Positions 3,231-63,409 of a stretch of 64,000 bases of DNA are shown here, piece after piece. Numbering within the stretch: position 1 is the first letter of the stretch; each line of letters opens with the position of its first letter. Source of the stretch: Mustelus asterias (taxonomy: Eukaryota); the NCBI RefSeq assembly GCF_964213995.1, contig NC_135815.1, positions 33,356,001-33,420,000 of the forward strand, in the 5' to 3' direction. A program made the translations under genes and the position numbers. The notes beneath the pieces were generated by a model, which made no database searches, was not told the origin of the DNA, and saw only the letters and a list, made by a program, of their open reading frames with translations.

Positions 3231-5144
3231 GGAACCCTGTGGACATCCTGATCTATCGACCTACTTAGGAATTGCCTTGGAAGTTTCAACTTCAGATGGG
3301 CAGTTCCCCTGCTCCCCACGACGATCTGAGAATGTTTCTGACTTTGAGCTCGAGGCATTAACTTTCTTACTTGGGTAGTTAACCAGGAAATGCTAAATTA
3401 AAACAGGGTGCAACGCCTGGTGAAGTTTATAATTGCAATGGCCATCTGATTGTTATTGCCACCGCTTGGAAAATCTGGGCCTCTCTTGCCCTCCTTGCTG
3501 GACCTGCTGCGAATTTCCAACACTTGCATTTTATATTTCAGATTTGTGCAACATTTTGCTTTTGTTTTAATGACTTGTACAGACTCAGTGACTTGTCCTG
3601 TAATTTATGTTCTATTTTCTATATGATATAACCCAACATCTTACTTGCCACTGACAATACTGCAAATAGTTTCAATGTTCTATCCAACAGTATCCGTCAA
3701 TCCCTTTGCTGCACTGTACAAACCATGTTTAGTTAAGTTTGCAGTGTTTATTTTTTGACACTTGTAACTTTGCACTTGTTATTAGGATTAGATATGGTCT
3801 TTCTCAGCTTAACTTTCCTGTTGTTCCAGGCGCCTCTGTACCTAATCAACCTGCTCTTCATTGTTGGTAGTTTCTTGTAACAAGTCATCAAGTTTGGGAA
3901 ATTTTGTTGCAATTGCTACTTGAGTTTGTTGCTGTGGAATATGAACAGCAAATGTCACTACTGATTTTTCAACCACACCCCCCCATTAATTATTTTTTGC
4001 CATTCTAATACAGCTCCATGTCTCACTATCTTCAAAGCAGCCGGTTTAAAGTACAATGATATAATTGCCCACTATGTATTTCTGTCATTTGTGCCAAGTT
4101 CCTGGTACTGGTATCATATCAGAACATCCATAAAGCTTTTGATAAGTAAGCAACATCCATGGGTTTGGCCTTTATCCATAAATTCTGGTAAACCAGTCAA
4201 AAATGATCACACCTGATTGCACTCTGACCTGTAAACTCTCTTTGCCTTCATTGATATCCCCTCCCTCTCTTTCCTCAAATAAAAGCTATACCAAATTTCC
4301 CTGACTTGATGCCCTTTATTCAGGATAGTCTGTTAAAGTTTGAACAATTTGATGAAGTTAATTTCTAGCATATCCCTTTTGTCCTATTTTTAAAGGAGGT
4401 TATGGTCCCTTCTCTGATAGTTCCTTATTGCTACTTAGTATTATCTTTAAAATGTTCTCATTTCACAGAAAATAAACCTTTATTCTTGTGAGTAAATGGG
4501 TCGCTTTTATGAACATTTGACACAAAAAATGTTCAGGATATTCTCTGAAGAATAGCAAGCTTCAAGTCATGGATTCCAACATTGTGCCACCCCCACTTGC
4601 TGTGATCATTTTCCCTCTTCATTTCCCCTCACTGCATCCGTTCTTTCGATCTCATCTTAGCCGTGTTTTCACTATCCCCGCTTATCTTTCTCCCTCTGAC
4701 GCTGAACAATTAGACCTTCAGCTTCATCCCCTTGCAACCCCATTGGTGATCTGCATTTTGTGGTTAGCAGTGAAGCACCAACTCTCATCACAGACCCTTC
4801 TGTGGGTTGGAATGCCCCCTGTTTTATGTCAGTTTGGGAGATCTCTCGGCATCTAGCAATGTGTCATGAAGCAGGATAAATATCTAATCATGTTGAAGTG
4901 TTAAGGAAAGCAAACCAAGAAGTTAAAAGCATGAAATATTTAATTTTGCTTAAAATTTTACAGTGTTAAATAAATGATTGGAGTTCAGATGTCAGTTCAA
5001 ATATCTTTAACTTAAAAATATACATATCTTTATATGGGGAGGGGAAAAAACAGATCAGCGTGCAAGGTTTCATTAAGTGCGATTTTCACCCAAAGTGTAA
5101 CTTGTTTTTTTGCTTGTGCTTTCTCCCTTCAGTTTGTCGCCTAG

Positions 5145-16446: not shown

Positions 16447-16570
16447 AAAGGCATAATACTGGCAGATGCTGGAATCTGAAACAAAAAGAGAAAATTCTGG
16501 AAAATCTCAGCAGGTCTGACAGCATCTGTGGAGAGAGAACGGAACCAATGTTTCGATTCTGGATGACCCG
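16447..16570 (-). mobile_element. Penelope-like terminal repeat fragment
   Basis: Reverse complement of the unit at 33529-33636 (CAGATGCTG...GACCTGCTGAGATTTTCCAG), including the 3' half of the hammerhead motif. Confidence 0.7.
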
Positions 16571-18485: not shown

Positions 18486-21400
18486 GTGAGTAGTTTTTAA
18501 GTCTTGCAGTTGATAAAAAACTTACTGCGCCATAAGGTTTATATAGCTTCAGCCAGCAATAAGTGAGTGGGATTATGATGCACTAAGTGGCTGTTAACTT
18601 GCCTTCTCAAAACTTGTGCAACAACAGAGCAGACTGCAAAGTGAACTTACACCTAAAGTGATTTCACTTTTTTTTAAAAAAGTACTTAATTGGCTGTGAA
18701 TCACTTTGAAAAATCTTGAGCGAATGAAAGATGGTATATTAATGCAAGTTATTTCCATTCACAATGTTCTCATCACATTCTCTTTTCTTTCTACAATGCC
18801 AACATGTATTCGTAGAATGGCTTGTGGGGGTCCCAAGGCCCTTCACAGAAGTACTGACACCGAGTCACACAAGGTATGAGGGAAGATGACCTAAAGTTAG
18901 ATCAAAGAAATGGGTTGGAGAACATTTTAAAGGACCTGAGAGAAGGGCGAGATATTAGGAGGGAGTTCTCGAACTTGGGGGCCGAGGCAACTGATGACAT
19001 TGATGGAACTGGTGGAAGAGCATTGAAAATTGGGGGGAGGGGGACTGCAAGAAGCCAGCTTTTACACTCATTTTACTGAGTGGCCAGTTTTCTTTTTAAC
19101 CCCCTTTTCCCCTGTGGTCAGAATTCAGTGCCACTTGCTGTCCAGGTTCAGTGAGATAGAACAGCCGCTAACTCAAGTTACTGTATAATGTTCGCAACTT
19201 GCTGGATTGCACTGAATCATTTTACTGTCTTCAGAAGAGGAAAGGTAAGGGAAAAAAATGGAATTATGTGGAGAATAATTGCACCCTATCAAAAGAGAAT
19301 GGAAATGGAATGGACTACATTTTACAGTCGTGAAAGAGATACTTCGATGAGGATATATTGATTTAGAAATGTGTGATATTTCTGTGTCTCCCTGGCTAGA
19401 CTGACATGCATGGAAATAATTCTCATGTTGGCCTTTTGCTGCCTTTACTGGACTCACTGAAGTCAGGAGATCTGATTTGAACTGGACTGGCACAGCTTTT
19501 TATCATCAATACAAGGCAATGGTTAAACGTCTTCCACCTTTTAGGTTTGGTGTTAAGTCTGGCCCAGACTGATGGAATGAAAGTAGTTTATGTTTGTTGG
19601 TAGTAATGGGGCGTTGCGAAATGAGTTTGAAGGGTCTCAAAACAACTCCCTCTTGAGCATAAAACCACAATGCAAAACTGATGCAATTTTCTGCTAAATT
19701 GGCAAATGTGCTCAAAGGGCTGCTTTTCAACTATTGCCTGTGACAAAACATGCCACCCTCCATTGACTGTGTACAGAAATGTCTTCTAACCTTCTCCTTC
19801 ATCTTTCTGTGACTATGTTGAGTTGATAACTCGGCTGAACCCAGCCAGAGGAGTTTCTTTTGCTGTTGAGTTTACCAAAACCCTACTGAGGTTTTTTTTG
19901 GCTCGGGGTTTAAATCCAATTGTTTTCATGTTGTGCGTTCTGTATCCTTTCCCTGAGTGAAGACATTACTGAATTCCAAACTATGTTGTTGCAACAGTAG
20001 TATTATTTCACTGAAGTGTTCCTTGTAAATATTCAAGGCTGCATGATCCACTTGAAAACTAAAATGAGATTCTTTTGGGTGAAGAAAAGATTAATTAATT
20101 TATTTGCATAGAATGCCAGCTTGCTTTGATTGTTCACACATCTGTCTCAGCTATAAGGTTGCAGGTTCAAGCCCCACTCCAGGACCTAGGAAAAAATTTC
20201 TTTGCTAGCACTGAAGAAATAATGCTTTGTTTTCTTAGCATTTATACAGCCTTTCATACATCTGAACGGCAATACCAGTTTCACATGCTGGATGCAATTT
20301 TAAAAGTGCCTGACAATGTATTGCAATTTGACCTTTTTTAAATCGGATAGATGATGGAGAGGTGTAAAATGCAATTTTATATATTGATGAACTTTGGTGG
20401 CACAACTTCTACTTTTGTCGCTTCCAGGTCATTTATCCACAGAGGTAGATTCTGTTGTACTGGCTTTCTTTTCCATAGAATGTGAAGCCTTGCGACTTAT
20501 TTCTGAGGCTTAATTAGTTTCGCACATTCTAAAGTCAAATCGTGCAGACTTAGTCACATTGAATTTATGTTAAATTAGCCAGTGGTTGTGCTATCTTATA
20601 GACCTGTTCACAGATATCCCAGTGAGGTGTTCATAAGAGACAGCGACAATACTGAAAAAAGGATGCAAGGCGACAGCAAAGCTTCATGCTGCCCTGTACA
20701 TTGAACCAAGCGTATATTTTATGAGACAAAACACAATACTATGCATGCTGGGAATCTTAAATTAGAAACAGAAAATGCTGGAAATACCCAGCGGGTCTTT
20801 GTGTTATGAGGTTAGGCTGTGCGCCCAACAAATGATGTACCACCATAAATTTTGGTTTGAATATTATTGTAGGGATTGTGCTGGTATTCAGTTCAGAGAT
20901 TCGATGAAGAACACAACTGAGTAATTGTTCATCATGATCCACAGAAATGGTTGAAACACACAACAGAGCTATCAGTGCTTTAAAATAGGCCGAGTCCCAT
21001 TGGTTTTAGTCACAAGAAAAATAAACTTGACAGTTTCTGAATCGTGATGAACCTGCTGTGCGCTTTTTGGATTTTCTGTTGTGACTAAAACTTTCGCCAT
21101 TTAAAATGATGGAACATTACAGCACAGAAACAGGCCATTTGGCTCATCTGGTTTGCAGCAGTTACAGCTTTTCTGTTTGTCTCGCCAGGTTAGGCGAACT
21201 GCTAGATTAAAAAGAACAACAGGGAAATGAACAATTTCATAGTTGATACCGGGAATTGGATGATCCAGGGGAACTAGGGGAAAGTGATTTTATTTTTAAA
21301 GCTAAGTTGCCTAAGGAGGCTGATTTAAGTGTTTTGGGTTTGTAATACCATTAATAAGGTGTCTATTTGCAGCCATCGACTTGAATGATCTAATGGAGTG

Positions 21401-26979: not shown

Positions 26980-27110
26980 GGCTTTGACAAAGGGTCATCT
27001 GGACTCGAAATGTCAGCTGTTTTCTCTCCTTGCAGATGCTGCCTGATCTCCTGATATTTTCAACATTTAAAAAAATTTTTCATTTCCAGCATTTGCAATT
27101 TTTTGCTTTA
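26980..27110 (+). mobile_element. Penelope-like terminal repeat with hammerhead-like motif (26980-27018)
   Basis: GGCT-TTGACAA-A-GGGTC-ATCTG-GACTC-GAAA-TG-TC-AGCT followed by the CAGATGCTG...TTTCCAGCAT body shared with 33529-33636. Confidence 0.7.
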
Positions 27111-31200: not shown

Positions 31201-33528
31201 GAGGGCCTACAGACTGGAGATTGAAGAGGCACATACAGCATAAATTAAGGTGGAATCTTGAGAGTTCATGAAATCACACAGCAAAGAACGGGGCATTCAG
31301 CCCACCTGTGTCAACTCTTTAAAAAGAGCCATCCAGTTAGATCCACTCGCATGCTGTTTCCCAACATTCCTTCAAAGCTTTCCTTTTCAATTATGCATCC
31401 AATTTCCTTCCCAAAGTTATTATTTAATCTGCTTCCACCAGCTTAAAGGCAGTGCATTCTCGATCATGTGTACACTTGCTGTGCACAAAAGAAAATTCTC
31501 ATCTGTGCTTTTTACATGAAATTAGTTTAAATAAATCTAAACATTTCTGGAAAATGAGCAGCAACTGTGAACGAAGGTCATTATTTTTGGCATTTGGGTA
31601 CCTGCCCCCTATGTTAGAAGGGGGGTCTGCATTATACCCAAAAAGCAAAATATGTTGCAAAATGGTTCAGGTAGAGTCAGTTTACCAAGACGTTCAAATG
31701 CTTACCTTAAATGGGCTTGCAAATTCTGGATTAATGTTTTATAACAGTTATTTACCCCTTTTGCATTGTCATGGGAACCAGTTGTCACTAAGCAACAACC
31801 TTCAGTCAAGAGAGAGGCGGTCTTGGATGATTACTGAGAGCCATAGTGCTCCATGACCAGCTGATGGCAAGTGTGTACTAGGGCAAGCTGCTTCTGGAAC
31901 ATTTCATTGATTTAACCTTTAACCCTGTAGTTTGGAGACCAGCAGTCTACAGCGTCTTCTTGCAAGCTAGCTTTCATAGAAATGAATTTTTTTTCAATAT
32001 TGAAATTACTCTGTCAGTCACAGCAACTGACTTGCACGAAAAAAAAATTCACCCATGCACAGATGAACAAGGTGTACAGAAGCAGAACCTGTGATGATCG
32101 CAAGAATCGTATGGCCTCTGGAAATCTTATAGGTAAATTTTGAGCAAAATAAATAAATAATGTTGAATCACCATTTTAATTGAGGCTTATTGAATCATGA
32201 GTGGGATGGGGCAAGAGGAAGAGAGGATATGTTGATGACTAGTTTTTTTACTTGTGAAGGAACAGTACAGTGGATTGATGCACTTATTGCAATATTATCA
32301 GTTAAACTAGAACTCCATTATAATTCAATCCATATTTTGTGACGAGGATATTTCTGTGCATTATATAATTGTATATATCCTCTATATGTATATTATATTG
32401 AGGGTAGAGCAACACAGTAAGGTCGGGGATAAAGGTGAAGTATTTTGGATGTCGTCAGAGCATGTCTTGTGTGATGCAATGTTGTGGGGTTTCGTGTCCA
32501 TTTCATGGCCAAATATGTAGCGTTTTTGTTAGGATCTGATGGGGATGTTCTAGCTCGTGTATAGTTGTGAGTGTCTTTTGATGAGGATTGAAGTTCTGGC
32601 TAGCCTAACCTAATGCCAGACAGCACAGCCCCAATGATGGAATTGCTTAATAGCCAATGAAACTGTTGTGAAGTTATTGTTGTAAAGTAGGAACATTTGA
32701 CAGCATGCTTGCTAATATAGTTGGCATAAGGCAGTATGGAAATGGGGAAAAAATAGAGGAAATAAACATTGAGGCATACAAATGATTGTGCAATGACGGG
32801 GACAAATACTATAAATCCACAGTGGCAGATGACAAAAATCATGTTTTTATTGTTTAAATAACTAGGTAGCTATGGTGAGGGAAGAAAGTTATTTCTATCT
32901 GGAGAAAGAATTTTTATAAATAGTAGATGGAATTACAAACATATGTATTTTTCATTATCTGCGATGTAGATTTATTCAAGTGATACATTGCTTCATTAAA
33001 TTTGCAGTATTAAGGTGAAATTGTTCTTCAAATGGGAACAGGGAATCACTAGAAATGATGCAGAATGTCTGAGAAAAGCCCTCCACAGAATTTACCCAAT
33101 GTACAGAATTTGTGTGTTTTTGATTGGTCTGCAATGACAGATTTGGTTGACGTTAAGTCAAATAATGGGAGTGAAGGATGATCCCGATGGAGAATTTTAG
33201 TTTTAAAATAGGAAATGGAGCGTGGCCATAAATGAAAACTTTTCGGACTGGAGAGGGGATCTGAGTGGTGTTCCCCATGAATATGTTTGAAAATCCTGCT
33301 ATTTTATGTTACACGAACAGATGCTTTCTGAAGATAGTACTTCTGCATTGAAACTCAATGTGTTCCCCTGGCGTTCATTTTAAAATTATGGGAATTAAGA
33401 AAAGTTTCATTTTCTCTGCAATTCTGGATTGCAATCATTGAAACAAAATATTGATGACTATTCTGATGTGGAATGTTGAAGGGTAAAATGTACTCAAATG
33501 AGGCAAGATAGAATGTGGATTTTAACTG

Positions 33529-33636
33529 GATAAAAGCTTTGACAAAGGGGCATCTGGACTCGAAACGTCAGCTCTTTTTCCTCTCCTTACAGATGCTGCC
33601 CGACCTGCTGAGATTTTCCAGCATTTTCTCTTTTGG
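33529..33636 (+). mobile_element. 108-bp Penelope-like unit with hammerhead-like motif and 15-bp TSD
   Basis: TGTGGATTTTAACTG is duplicated exactly at 33514-33528 and 33637-33651; motif AGCT-TTGACAA-A-GGGGC-ATCTG-GACTC-GAAA-CG-TC-AGCT at 33535-33573. Confidence 0.8.
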
Positions 33637-33999
33637 TGTGGATTTTAACTGTTTTCTGTGTAGTGATAACAGACTTCCCCATATCATGAAGTTGATTTGG
33701 ACACTTTCCCATAGAGAACTGATAGGAATCGAGAGACATTTTTTAGTAGAAACGTAGCCTACACCCAGGCTCCTTATGTCGCGGAGTGATCTGAGCCCAA
33801 GAAACCAAAGAAGATGGGGAAGGAAATGCTTCCCCTATCCTCTTCTGACCAGCCACAGTTACAAAAACTCAAAAAATATTGCAAATCTTTCTTAAAAATT
33901 TTGTTGGGGGCTGGGAACCAGGGCATTCCATTAGATGCAAGGTGCACAAAAGATTCTGAGAAATAACACTCTGGGTGGGGTCACACTAAGGGCGAGTGC

Positions 34000-44336: not shown

Positions 44337-44440
44337 TCTGGTCCTGACCAAGTGTCACTGACTTGAAGCATCAACCCTGTTTCTCTCTCCTCAGATTCTG
44401 CCAAACCTGCTGAACATTTCCAACATTTTCTCTTTTCGTT
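44337..44440 (+). mobile_element. Decayed Penelope-like terminal repeat
   Basis: Degenerate hammerhead boxes (CTGACCA ... GAAG) followed by CAGATTCTGCCAAACCTGCTGAACATTTCC. Confidence 0.55.
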
Positions 44441-47988: not shown

Positions 47989-48639
47989 ATCATCGAATCA
48001 TAGAATCCCTACAGTGCAGAAAAAGCTATTCGTCCCATCGAGCCTGCACCGACGACAATCCCACCGAGGCCCGTAACCCCACATATTTATTCTGCTAATA
48101 CACTTGAGGGCAATTTAGCATGGCCAATCCACCTAATCTGCACATCTTCGACTGTGGGAGGAAATCGGAGCACCCGGAGGAAACCCACGTAGTCAGGGGG
48201 AGAACATGGAAACTCCACACAGACAGTTACCCAAGGCTGGAATTGAACCTGGGTCCCTGGCGCTGCGAGGCAGCTGTGCTAACCTGGGGCGGCACGCCGG
48301 TAGCACAGTGGTTAGCACTGCTGCTTCACAGCTCCAGAGACCTGGGTTCGAATCCCGGCCCAGCTCACTGTCTGTGTGGAGTTTGCGCATTCTCTGTGTC
48401 TGCGTGGGTTTCCTCTGCGTGCTCCGGTTTCCTCCCCAAATCCAAAGATGTGCGGGCTAGGTTGATTGGCTATTCTAAATTTCCCCTTAGTGTCCTGGGA
48501 TGCATAGGTTCGAGGGACTAGTGGGTAAATATGTACGGATATGGGGGTAGGGCCTGGGTGGGATTGTGGTTGGTGCAGACTCAATGGGCCGAATGGCCTC
48601 TTTCTGCGCTGTAGGATTCTATGTGCCACCATGCTGCCC
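47989..48639 (-). mobile_element. HE1-like V-SINE interrupted by another SINE
   Basis: Tail-to-head sequence 47989-48284; the remaining head (TGTGCCACCATGCTGCCC) resumes at ~48622-48639. Confidence 0.88.
48287..48623 (+). mobile_element. HE1-like V-SINE, full length, nested
   Basis: GGGCGGCACG...GGTTCGAATCC...GGATTCTATG inside the minus-strand copy. Confidence 0.9.
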
Positions 48640-51145: not shown

Positions 51146-51234
51146 ATATTAAGCTGAAATAAAACAGAAAATGCTGGAAAATCTCAGCAGATCTGAGTTT
51201 GTATTGAGGGGGTTCCAATGGATTGAAAAACATC

Positions 51235-60866: not shown

Positions 60867-61147
60867 GTGTATTGATGTTTTACTTCCCATGGACTGCTTA
60901 GAGACGTGCCATAAATGTTTTAATCAAGATGTGATGCAACAATCTAGATTCAATTTGACTTGAGGACAAGATCCAGAATGGTCAACTTGAAATAAAAGAA
61001 AAATTGTATTGAATCCAGTGTGGCTTAAAGAAAAATTTTCTCAGGGAACTTGAGCACTCCAAACTTATTTTTGTTATCTTTTATGCCTTGTTAGAGGCTT
61101 GGCAATCGCATTGTGGTTGAAACATTGAATTGCCTTAAGAACAAAGG
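60867..61147 (+). other. TRERF1: 5' UTR portion of the first coding exon of TRERF1
   Basis: Strong acceptor (CTGAC branch-like motif, TCTTTGTCTCATTTTCATCACAG) 281 nt upstream of the ATG. Confidence 0.65.
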
Positions 61148-62533
61148 ATGGGAGACCAACAGCTGTACAAGTCAAACCATGCTGTGAACAACACAGAAAA
61201 CCTGTACTATCCACAACAACCGCAATCCAGCCCCCTGACCAACATGAGTGGAAATATGAACCATAGCTATGGATCCACAGGCATGGACACATCTCAAACT
61301 TCTCCACCTTCCCCTCATTTTCCTCCGCATTCAAGGGAAGCTGCAGTAGCAGGAACTATGCCAATTGTTACCAAAAGCCTTATGATAGAGCCATCTAGGC
61401 CAAACAATTGGCCTCATTCCAATGCTGGCAATCATGTCCAAATGCAGAATGACCTTAGCAATCCCTCTATGATGTGGACCTCCACTGCTCAGACTGATGC
61501 TCCAGATGGGTATTCTTATGTATATTCTTCAGCAAATGACAAATTGACTAGTGATGTCTTGCACAAGTTGGACTCATTCACGCAGGTTTTTGCAAATCAG
61601 AACCTCCGAATTCAACAGGCGAACAATGTAGCATCGAGCCAGCTAAACCAGGCTGCCATGGTTGAGAATGTGCGTGACAGCACGCTCCGGCAACTCTTGT
61701 CCCAAAAACCTCCAGCTGACCAACAACAAGCTGCTGCACAGCCAGTGCCGAGATTCCAACATTCCTTAACACAGCAAATGCATTGTGCGTTCCCGCTTGC
61801 ACAATCGAAGCAACAGTTACAAGCCATCCAGCAGCAGCAACAACAGCAACAGATGTATTTTGAGTACCAACAGTTGGCCCAGCTGCCGCAGCAGCAGTCA
61901 GTGTTGCAGCACCCGCAGTCGCATGTTCAGCAGCTGCAGGCTCAACAGGTGCTGTCTCAGCAGATTCAGCAACTGCCGCAGCAACAATACTTTGTACGTC
62001 AGCAGCATCAGCCGCAACAACACACGTCAGTGCAGCAGCAATGCCCCATGCATTCAGTCCAGTTCTACCAGCCGCAGCAGATATTGTGCCAGTTGCAGCA
62101 ACCTATGCAGCAGCAGATGCAGCCGCCGCCGCCACCTTATCACCGAGACCAAAACCACAAGACCATGCAGCAGCCACACCAGTACTCCCAAGAACAATCC
62201 CGCCCTTCTCAGCACACTCAGATGGCTGCACCGTCTCAGTATTTCTACCAAGAGCCGCCGCACTATCGGCATTTGTACCAGCAAAGTCAATTGCATCAGC
62301 AGCAAGAAGAAACTATGCAACAGAAACAATTTAATGCGGAAAGCAGGATTCAGGCTTCTCTTGCCCATCATACAAGCACCCCTGCTTCAGAGGTTATGGA
62401 AGAAGTAACGAGGAAGGAACTGAGTAATATGGGTCATCCTGGGGGACTTATGGTCCCCCAAAGACATCTTATAGCGCCATCTAATATTCCTCATGCACCT
62501 GCCAAGGTATCTCAACAGCAATCTCTGTCTCAG
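61148..62533 (+). CDS. TRERF1: Transcriptional-regulating factor 1, first coding exon (462 codons, Q/P-rich N-terminus; gene continues beyond the window)
   Basis: Start MGDQQLYK.NH, motifs SPHFP, KLTS.VLHKLDSFTQVFANQNLRIQ, DS.LRQLLSQKP, YHRD and QY.YQEP match vertebrate TRERF1 as I recall it; Kozak AGGATGG; phase-0 donor CAG|GTAAAA after 62533. Confidence 0.93.
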
Positions 62534-63409
62534 GTAAAATTCCCAGCTGGGTTTGAATTACAATTTTGCGCTGGAAGGTTTGCAAATTTATTTTCATTAA
62601 CCCTCAGTTGCTCATTTATTCTACAGGTGCGTTAGGGAGTTGTGTTCTAGTAGTGTGAAACTATCTGCCCATTACAAGGATAATTACAGTAATTATATGT
62701 TGCATATGCATTTAGCCAAAAATGAATGTGATTGCGTTCAGTAACTTGGACCTTTCAGTCAACATTGCAAACTATGTACATATAACAGGGACAAGAAGTT
62801 TCCACCATTTGATAGAATTCTAAATTTCAGATTGTGGAATGCAGCCCTTTTTAATCAACTTCTGCATGGTCCGGTGGGGAGACATTGCTCAAGTTCCTGC
62901 CTAACCTCCCGCCCCTCCTGTGCTGGCTTGAGTTGTTTTCTGTGATTGGGTGATGTAGTGGGCCTTCTCCCCAGTGGCTGCTGCTCCTATGTGAAGCCTG
63001 TAGATGACTTTGCTCAATCCGAGGCCTTGTTACTGATGGACCGTCTCAGCTCCAGTGACAGCCTGCCACTCAGCTTCAGTCTCTGACCCCGAGAGGGAAG
63101 GAGCAAGATTCCAGATGGCCGAGGCTCAGCCACAAACTGCCCTCGACAGCAATGGTCGCTTTGTGCTGCCTTTGGCTTGGCCTGCTCTGGACCCTGATGT
63201 TCCCCAAGCACCCAGTGTTGGAAGAGGCAGCACTGACCCGCTGGGTTTTCGTCCCCGGACCCTGGGCTCCTGTCACCCAGGAAGGTGGCTCACGCTTTGC
63301 TGGTAATGAGATCTAAGTGTCACTGGCCAAGGGGGAGTTGCAGGTACTCACTGATAGGAGCAGATGCAACAACAGGGTGCTGAGTCTGAGTACGGTCGAG
63401 AAATCTATG

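What the first reader, a model, noticed from the sequence alone, without database searches (positions are those of the whole stretch)
33514..33651. 108-bp TSD-bounded mobile unit carrying a compensated (U3:A8) hammerhead motif
Seen: a perfect 15-bp direct repeat brackets 108 bp that open with AGCT-TTGACAA-A-GGGGC-ATCTG-GACTC-GAAA-CG-TC-AGCT. This maps onto a type I hammerhead: stem I AGCT/AGCT, stem II (one mismatch in this copy), GAAA box, palindromic ACGT stem-loop III and a GUC cleavage triplet. The usual CUGANGA reads UUGACAA, so C3 and G8 have changed together. Established: 3:8 is a Watson-Crick pair in the active fold, U3:A8 variants and an extra base after A9 are tolerated, and PLEs carry minimal hammerheads. 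Inference: a shark Penelope-derived, retrozyme-like short family with a non-canonical core that CUGANGA pattern searches would miss, inserted recently in sense orientation. This is the best candidate for something undescribed here, though I cannot check the literature.
Basis: partly seen in the sequence, partly recalled or inferred. Interest (0 to 1): 0.7.

Follow-up and report, generated by a model that had tools for sequence, protein, structure and literature searches.

The report
Penelope retroelement stub with hammerhead variant
This 108-base insert is a short, promoter-less stub of a very abundant Penelope-like jumping gene, likely left by two copying starts at one cut site; the unusual core of its self-cutting-RNA (hammerhead) motif is real but already published for such elements, so it is mostly ordinary.

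Summary
In detail: a perfect 15-bp target-site duplication flanks 108 bp with a minimal type I hammerhead. U3:A8 is the state of this whole family, and a sister family has C3:G8. The unit is not its own retrozyme family. It is the hammerhead end of a ~3.2-kb Penelope-like element with RT and GIY-YIG domains (over 10,000 copies). It consists of 9 nt of inverted tail joined at AGC to a copy running from helix I to the short 3' end. Two other AGC joins are as common (31 and 25 exact copies against 31). U3:A8 in Penelope hammerheads was published in 2014 (PMC4209133). About half of the copies begin at helix I, 30 bp after a TATA box; under 1% begin at the predicted cut site. Two-armed inserts nearly always pair one long end with one short end (47 of 49). 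I infer run-off copies of uncut RNA made by twin priming. The scan has noted twin priming on other shark DNA before; I found the TATA/run-off link neither in my searches nor in the scan's notes. Cleavage is untested. Low interest.

The parts
33514..33528 (+). Left copy of the 15-bp target-site duplication. Its last 4 bases are complementary to the element's sequence just past the long 3' end (likely primer microhomology).
   Evidence: native continuation past the tail
33529..33537 (-). 9-nt inverted piece: the reverse complement of the element's tail end (long start site, about +131 with U3 = 0). Its last 3 bases (AGC) are shared with helix I.
33535..33573 (+). Minimal type I hammerhead motif: helix I 33535-38/33570-73, U3:A8 core 33539-45, extra A 33546, helix II 33547-51/33557-61 (G33550 mismatch), GAAA, palindromic ACGT, predicted cut after 33569
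   Evidence: sequence; families; PMC4209133 descriptor; cleavage untested
33535..33636 (+). Sense arm: the element's repeat from position -4 (first base of helix I, inferred RNA 5' end) to about +95 (short 3' end, no tail). It lacks the upstream TATA box and the ORF.
33637..33651 (+). Right copy of the target-site duplication
26981..27068 (+). Second, more decayed copy of the same family in the window (U3:A8 core, intact helix II, remnant of the tail behind it)

Best explanation
The 108 bp are a stub of the hammerhead-bearing end of an abundant endonuclease-positive Penelope-like element (likely Neptune type), likely written in one insertion by two reverse-transcription starts on uncut element RNA. 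Shown: the parent is about 3.2 kb with RT, a CX4CXXC linker and GIY-YIG, and carries this repeat at both ends. Copies end at about +95 or about +131. About half begin at -4, the first base of helix I, which lies 30 bp after a TATA box. Inferred: the TATA box in the upstream repeat starts transcription at helix I. The enzyme nicks both target strands 15 bp apart. One nick primes at +95 and runs off the RNA 5' end after about 100 nt. The other nick primes at about +132, helped by a 4-base match between target and RNA, and gets only 9 nt. The two cDNA ends anneal at AGC and repair gives duplication, inverted 9-mer, sense arm, duplication. The hammerhead is inherited from the parent. U3:A8 likely arose once, by CpG decay at C7-G8 followed by a compensating C3U. 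It would need a dimer or protein help to cut. This copy, with no promoter and a helix II mismatch, is likely dead.
For: Parent: the EN C-terminus lies upstream of the repeat in most of 30 loci picked by the EN sequence. The repeat recurs 3,165 bp apart around RT and EN in L334 and also flanks them in L333 and L335. Pfam gives weak hits below the curated cut-offs: GIY-YIG E 2.5e-4 and 6.8e-4, RVT_1 E 2.3e-4. 5' ends: in 100 distinct copies picked by a 28-mer downstream of the ribozyme, 32 break at -4, 50 at -4 to -1 and 1 at +31. Genome-wide, 2,010 exact hits have foreign bases before the first AGCT against 2,170 native; before the second AGCT (cut site) it is 84 against 11,469. L323 and L324 start at -4 and run on into the ORF region. 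TATAAA sits at -30 in 61 of 92 family A copies with native upstream sequence (28 have none, 3 are shifted) and at the same place in family B despite a diverged spacer. Paired ends: of 58 two-armed inserts, 47 are long/short, 2 short/short, 0 long/long and 9 have an atypical end (binomial p 4e-12 on 49). All 30 examined loci of the window's join class lack the tail on the sense arm, and 24 of 30 have an adjacent exact duplication of 8-16 bp. Predicted sister joins at two other AGC sites number 31 and 25, and 31 of their 32 classifiable inserts are long/short. The short class shares the family's segregating variants (A13G in 7 of 30 against 7 of 77; T14C in 3 of 30 against 9 of 77). Literature: two internal RT starts define the tail, both strands are cut and extended, and uncut RNA is the main substrate (PMC11167929).
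Against: No RNA data show the start at -4, since only contigs were available. No extra G from a cap appears at the joins (G ends 6 of 28 linkers). D. virilis Penelope uses an internal, TATA-less promoter (PMC2377424), although a TATA box was proposed in a rotifer pLTR (PMC3846280). Arkhipova et al. explain the palindromic joins by self-priming on antisense RNA, which was not excluded here. Some two-armed stubs were re-copied with their join, so not every short insert is made anew. The 3:8 covariation is one event between two families, not many, so the Fisher p overstates it. Family sizes come from exact patterns and samples from the start of contig C1.
Confidence: 0.8

Rival explanations
1. 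The 108-bp unit is a non-autonomous, retrozyme-like mini-family that copies itself from a master.
For: The class is uniform: 31 exact junction hits, inserts of 102-115 bp in the 24 of 30 loci with a clear duplication. Re-copying of other short two-armed stubs is seen (L175, L177, L293; L198, L235).
Against: Other AGC joins are as frequent (31 and 25). There are no private shared variants. The inverted piece varies in how far it reaches into the native sequence. No tandem arrays were found. The unit has no promoter, and its ends are not the ribozyme cut site.
Confidence: 0.07
2. Same parent, but the -4 hot spot and the inverted piece come from fold-back or self-priming at the AGCT palindrome, possibly on antisense RNA, not from run-off at a transcription start.
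For: Many joins are perfect palindromes centred on AGCT. Self-priming is proposed in PMC3846280. There is no cap signature.
Against: The identical AGCT at +31 is used about 65-fold less. Some -4 copies abut their target duplication with no inverted arm (L161, L234, L275). The conserved TATA at -30 and the strict long/short pairing are not explained.
Confidence: 0.12
3. The motif is a decayed hammerhead that no longer cuts, and U3:A8 is two neutral changes in the master.
For: Folding is no better than shuffles. Under 1% of copies start at the cut site. Published minimal hammerheads cut weakly (PMC4209133).
Against: The other core bases and helix II are kept between families A and B while the upstream spacer diverges. 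The two changes restore a known pair that is active in vitro (PMC3088659). A third family keeps the fold with different helix II and III sequences.
Confidence: 0.2

Closest known systems
Minimal type I hammerheads in pLTRs of metazoan Penelope-like elements, including the U3-A8 variant of S. mansoni Cercyon elements (PMC4209133; text parts 1-2 of 4 and supplement passages seen)
   Same: Short helix I, extra base after A9, G10.1-C11.1 pair, palindromic helix III without a loop, U3-A8 core, location in the terminal repeat, mostly single truncated copies.
   Different: This is a vertebrate family with over 10,000 copies and a C3:G8 sister family. No shark term occurred in the supplement file that could be searched (file 1 was not searched).
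EN+ PLE insertions with inverted pLTR, one-sided 30-40 bp tail and TSD (PMC3846280, PMC8557442; passages seen)
   Same: Inverted 5' piece, tail on one end only, target-site duplication, palindromic joins.
   Different: The inverted arm here is only 9 nt. The 5' ends pile up 30 bp after a TATA box, which the passages read do not state.
PAc (Poseidon, Anolis) internal reverse-transcription start (PMC11167929; parts 1-2 of 4 seen)
   Same: Two internal start sites about 35 nt apart, both strands used, uncut RNA as template.
   Different: The parent has a Neptune-type Zn-finger linker. The ORF appears to start after the tail rather than inside the hammerhead. This copy shows a 4-base target-RNA match at the long start, whereas PAc starts are reported as non-homologous.
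Non-LTR (animal) retrozymes (bioRxiv 10.64898/2026.07.22.740005, parts 1-3 of 5 seen; PMC7229834, search listing only)
   Same: Type I hammerhead, pLTR-derived, non-coding.
   Different: Retrozymes are tandem repeats with a hammerhead in each unit. None was found for this unit, and the unit has an inverted piece.

Membership tests
Minimal type I hammerhead (PLE type) | Core boxes with a Watson-Crick 3:8 pair, GAAA and NUH triplet | tested here: met
   U3:A8 in 60 of 68 family A copies, C3:G8 in 22 of 30 family B copies
Minimal type I hammerhead (PLE type) | Helices I and II, extra base after position 9, palindromic helix III | tested here: met
   The family has a 4-bp helix I and a 5-bp helix II. 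This copy has one helix II mismatch, and its fold is weaker (-5.7 against -10.9 kcal/mol).
Minimal type I hammerhead (PLE type) | Self-cleavage (dimer or protein-assisted) | not testable with these tools
   needs an in vitro assay
EN+ Penelope-like element | Single ORF with RT and C-terminal GIY-YIG in the parent | tested here: met
   Pfam hits are weak and below the curated cut-offs; all 7 long copies examined are broken
EN+ Penelope-like element | pLTR-ORF-pLTR partial tandem, inverted pLTR, optional tail, TSD | tested here: met
Neptune clade | CX2-5CxxC linker between RT and EN (PMC8557442) | tested here: met
   CX4CXXC is read in the translations; Nematis shares this feature
Neptune clade | RT phylogeny with reference elements | not tested
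   no reference sequences were fetched
Non-LTR retrozyme | Tandem repeats with a hammerhead in each unit | tested here: not met
   10 same-strand pairs within 1.5 kb among 403 cores in 428 loci, none an array of this unit; the loci are a sample, not the genome
Non-LTR retrozyme | Distinct self-propagating family (own variants, own ends) | tested here: not met
Non-LTR retrozyme | Circular RNA accumulation | not testable with these tools
   only contigs were offered

The most novel reading that the evidence does not exclude
In these shark Penelope-like elements the hammerhead begins at the first transcribed base, set by an upstream TATA box, so about half of all genomic copies are 100-135-nt run-off ('strong-stop') cDNAs of uncut RNA. 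Every two-armed insertion comes from one RNA primed at two fixed sites by the two nicked strands. The ribozyme, kept alive through a U3:A8 rescue of a CpG hit, then does not make the insertion template but decaps or circularises the RNA as a brake or switch. Some palindromic stubs are re-copied locally as true non-autonomous units.
Probability: 0.45. Interest if true: 0.45.

Novelty: new member of a known kind. Interest (0 to 1): 0.22.

Why it matters
As a ribozyme variant it matters little, because U3:A8 is in print for Penelope hammerheads. Its use is as a test set. Thousands of copies record where reverse transcription starts and stops. Two sister families give a natural C3:G8 versus U3:A8 pair for a clean cleavage test. 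If the TATA/run-off reading holds, it explains why Penelope elements litter genomes with solo hammerhead stubs. It would also show that the cut RNA is rarely the template, which bears on the open question of what these ribozymes are for.

Tried and rejected
Rfam scan of the window: no hammerhead hit. Folding z-scores were uninformative. PDB sequence search with the parent protein: 0 hits. Sequencing runs: no RNA holder listed; contigs of four other coded organisms hold the family but cannot show starts or cuts. Cap-derived G at -4 joins: not seen. A splice-acceptor reading of the -4 start (the native upstream ends in TTTTAG) was rejected: copies keep the AG and share no upstream exon (2 recurring 12-mers among 65 joins). 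Family B TATA counts were dropped because the loose pattern also caught family A; one search replaced them. Family B copy L098 was left out of the sample, and one of 101 rows is a duplicate. The -150 breakpoints are artefacts of the reference copy and mean 'extends further upstream'. In one search one short/short case (L235) has a damaged tail on inspection and L261/L263 may be one duplicated region; L363/L364 are duplicates and L343 has a shifted tail. Literature searches found no paper on shark Penelope hammerheads and none stating the TATA/run-off link, but the library lacks most subscription papers. Lunse et al. 2017 on dimeric PLE hammerheads is not held (recalled only), and Repbase and Dfam could not be checked.

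Full report
Observation. The sequence is as described. A perfect 15-bp repeat (33514-28, 33637-51) encloses 108 bp. From 33535 these read as a minimal type I hammerhead: 4-bp helix I, U3-U4-G5-A6-C7-A8-A9, one extra A, 5-bp helix II (G33550 mismatched in this copy), GAAA, palindromic ACGT, GUC. Rfam finds nothing and the fold is no better than shuffles. That is expected for minimal hammerheads, which lack a stable helix III (PMC4209133). Positions below count from U3 = 0.

The family. A core 28-mer has 4,716 exact hits and a downstream 28-mer 10,640. The best copies extend on both sides of the 108 bp. Upstream they run through a pyrimidine-rich 3' UTR into an ORF end, which translates to RT motifs, a CX4CXXC linker and a GIY-YIG nuclease (weak Pfam hits). 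Downstream they run through a 35-nt tail and on into the ORF region. In L334 the repeat recurs 3,165 bp apart around RT and EN. The parent is therefore an endonuclease-positive Penelope-like element, Neptune-type by its linker (PMC8557442). All 7 long copies examined are broken. Contigs of four other coded organisms hold the family.

The 3:8 pair. With the same helix II, the genome has 70 C3:G8, 123 C3:A8 and 66 U3:G8 hits among 4,716. Of 30 C3:G8 loci, 29 belong to a sister family B, which has 2,083 exact hits. In samples not picked on these bases, family A is U3:A8 in 60 of 68 and family B is C3:G8 in 22 of 30. All 6 C3:A8 copies of family B follow C7, the mark of CpG decay. A third family, placed behind its own GIY-YIG ORF in L336, is C3:G8 with different helix II and III sequences. 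So the compensation is real but is one event on the branch to family A, probably a CpG hit at G8 rescued by C3U (inference). It is not new. Cervera and De la Pena report U3-A8 in S. mansoni Penelope hammerheads, with about 1,300 hits from a dedicated descriptor. Perreault et al. report natural U3/A8 covariation, already shown active in vitro (PMC3088659).

What the 108 bp are. Bases 33529-37 are the reverse complement of the tail end, and their last three (AGC) are also the start of helix I. The last four bases of the left duplication match the native sequence just past the tail. The rest is -4 to +95. The junction has 31 exact copies. All 30 examined end without the tail, and 24 have an adjacent exact duplication of 8-16 bp. 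If such units arise each time by microhomology, the other AGC sites in the inverted strand should give similar classes. They do: 31 and 25 copies. The class shares the family's segregating variants, and no array of the unit occurs among 403 cores in 428 loci. It is a recurrent insertion product, not a retrozyme family.

Ends of the family. In 100 copies picked downstream of the ribozyme, 3' ends cluster near +95 and +131; 5' ends are at -4 in 32, at -4 to -1 in 50 and at the cut site (+31) in 1. Genome-wide the break rate is 2,010 against 2,170 native at the first AGCT and 84 against 11,469 at the identical second AGCT. TATAAA lies exactly 30 bp before -4 in 61 of 92 family A copies with native upstream sequence, and at the same spot in family B. 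Two copies start at -4 and run into the ORF region. Of 58 two-armed inserts, 47 pair a long with a short end, 2 are short/short, none is long/long and 9 have an atypical end; 31 of 32 classifiable inserts do the same in the two sister join classes.

Mechanism. The ends and counts above are shown; the steps are inferred. Transcription starts at helix I from the upstream repeat's TATA box. The enzyme nicks both strands and, as shown for PAc, starts reverse transcription at two internal sites about 35 nt apart on uncut RNA (PMC11167929). When it uses the sites near the RNA's 5' end, the cDNA runs off after 100-135 nt. The two cDNAs join by short homology. Here one ran +95 to -4 and the other stopped after 9 nt. 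Inverted pLTRs, the one-sided tail and palindromic joins are known (PMC3846280, PMC8557442), where self-priming on antisense RNA is offered instead. D. virilis Penelope has a TATA-less internal promoter (PMC2377424). No RNA data test the start site, and no cap signature was found.

Earlier scan notes. I looked them up after reaching this reading. The twin-priming idea appears in notes on other shark DNA; these are not independent support. A look-up for the TATA/run-off wording returned nothing, and the sequence look-up returned nothing.

Verdict. This is a real hammerhead motif of a known variant in a likely dead stub of a common Penelope-like family: a new member of a known kind, interest 0.22. 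The part worth following is the placing of the ribozyme at the inferred transcription start and the rarity of copies made from cut RNA. Closed bioRxiv supplements, one unsearchable supplement of PMC4209133 and Repbase/Dfam may already list this family.

Noticed in passing
L175, L177, L293 (G000:C1 7.68, 7.84 and 10.99 Mb); L198, L235 (C1 12.19 and 1.17 Mb): Palindromic stubs share the same non-templated linker at their centre but have different target duplications and swapped long/short arms. The exact linker of the first group occurs only twice genome-wide, both on C1. This suggests local re-copying of two-armed stubs.
   Followed up: partly
L336 (family C hammerhead behind a GIY-YIG ORF) and many other loci: A third Penelope family with a C3:G8 hammerhead also has a TATA-like run about 30 bp upstream of helix I, and by eye many of its copies begin 4-9 nt before the core. 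The TATA-hammerhead layout may be general in this genome.
   Followed up: partly
window 16481-16569 (-), 44345-44439 (+), 51161-51193 (-), 20766-20797 (-), 3501-3525 (+): Older, more decayed ends of related Penelope families.
   Followed up: no
window 61139-62635 (+): Gln-rich 498-aa open frame whose start resembles the first coding exon of TRERF1 (name recalled, not tested). If so, the insert lies upstream or in a 5' intron, in the gene's sense direction.
   Followed up: no
window 47999-48623: Two copies of an abundant ~330-bp short repeat lie head to head, forming a long inverted repeat that gives a spurious mir-607 Rfam hit.
   Followed up: no
L304, L310, L316, L322: Rearranged 5' ends of full-length elements in which the tail and the start of the ORF region are joined to inverted or repeated hammerhead ends.
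   Followed up: no
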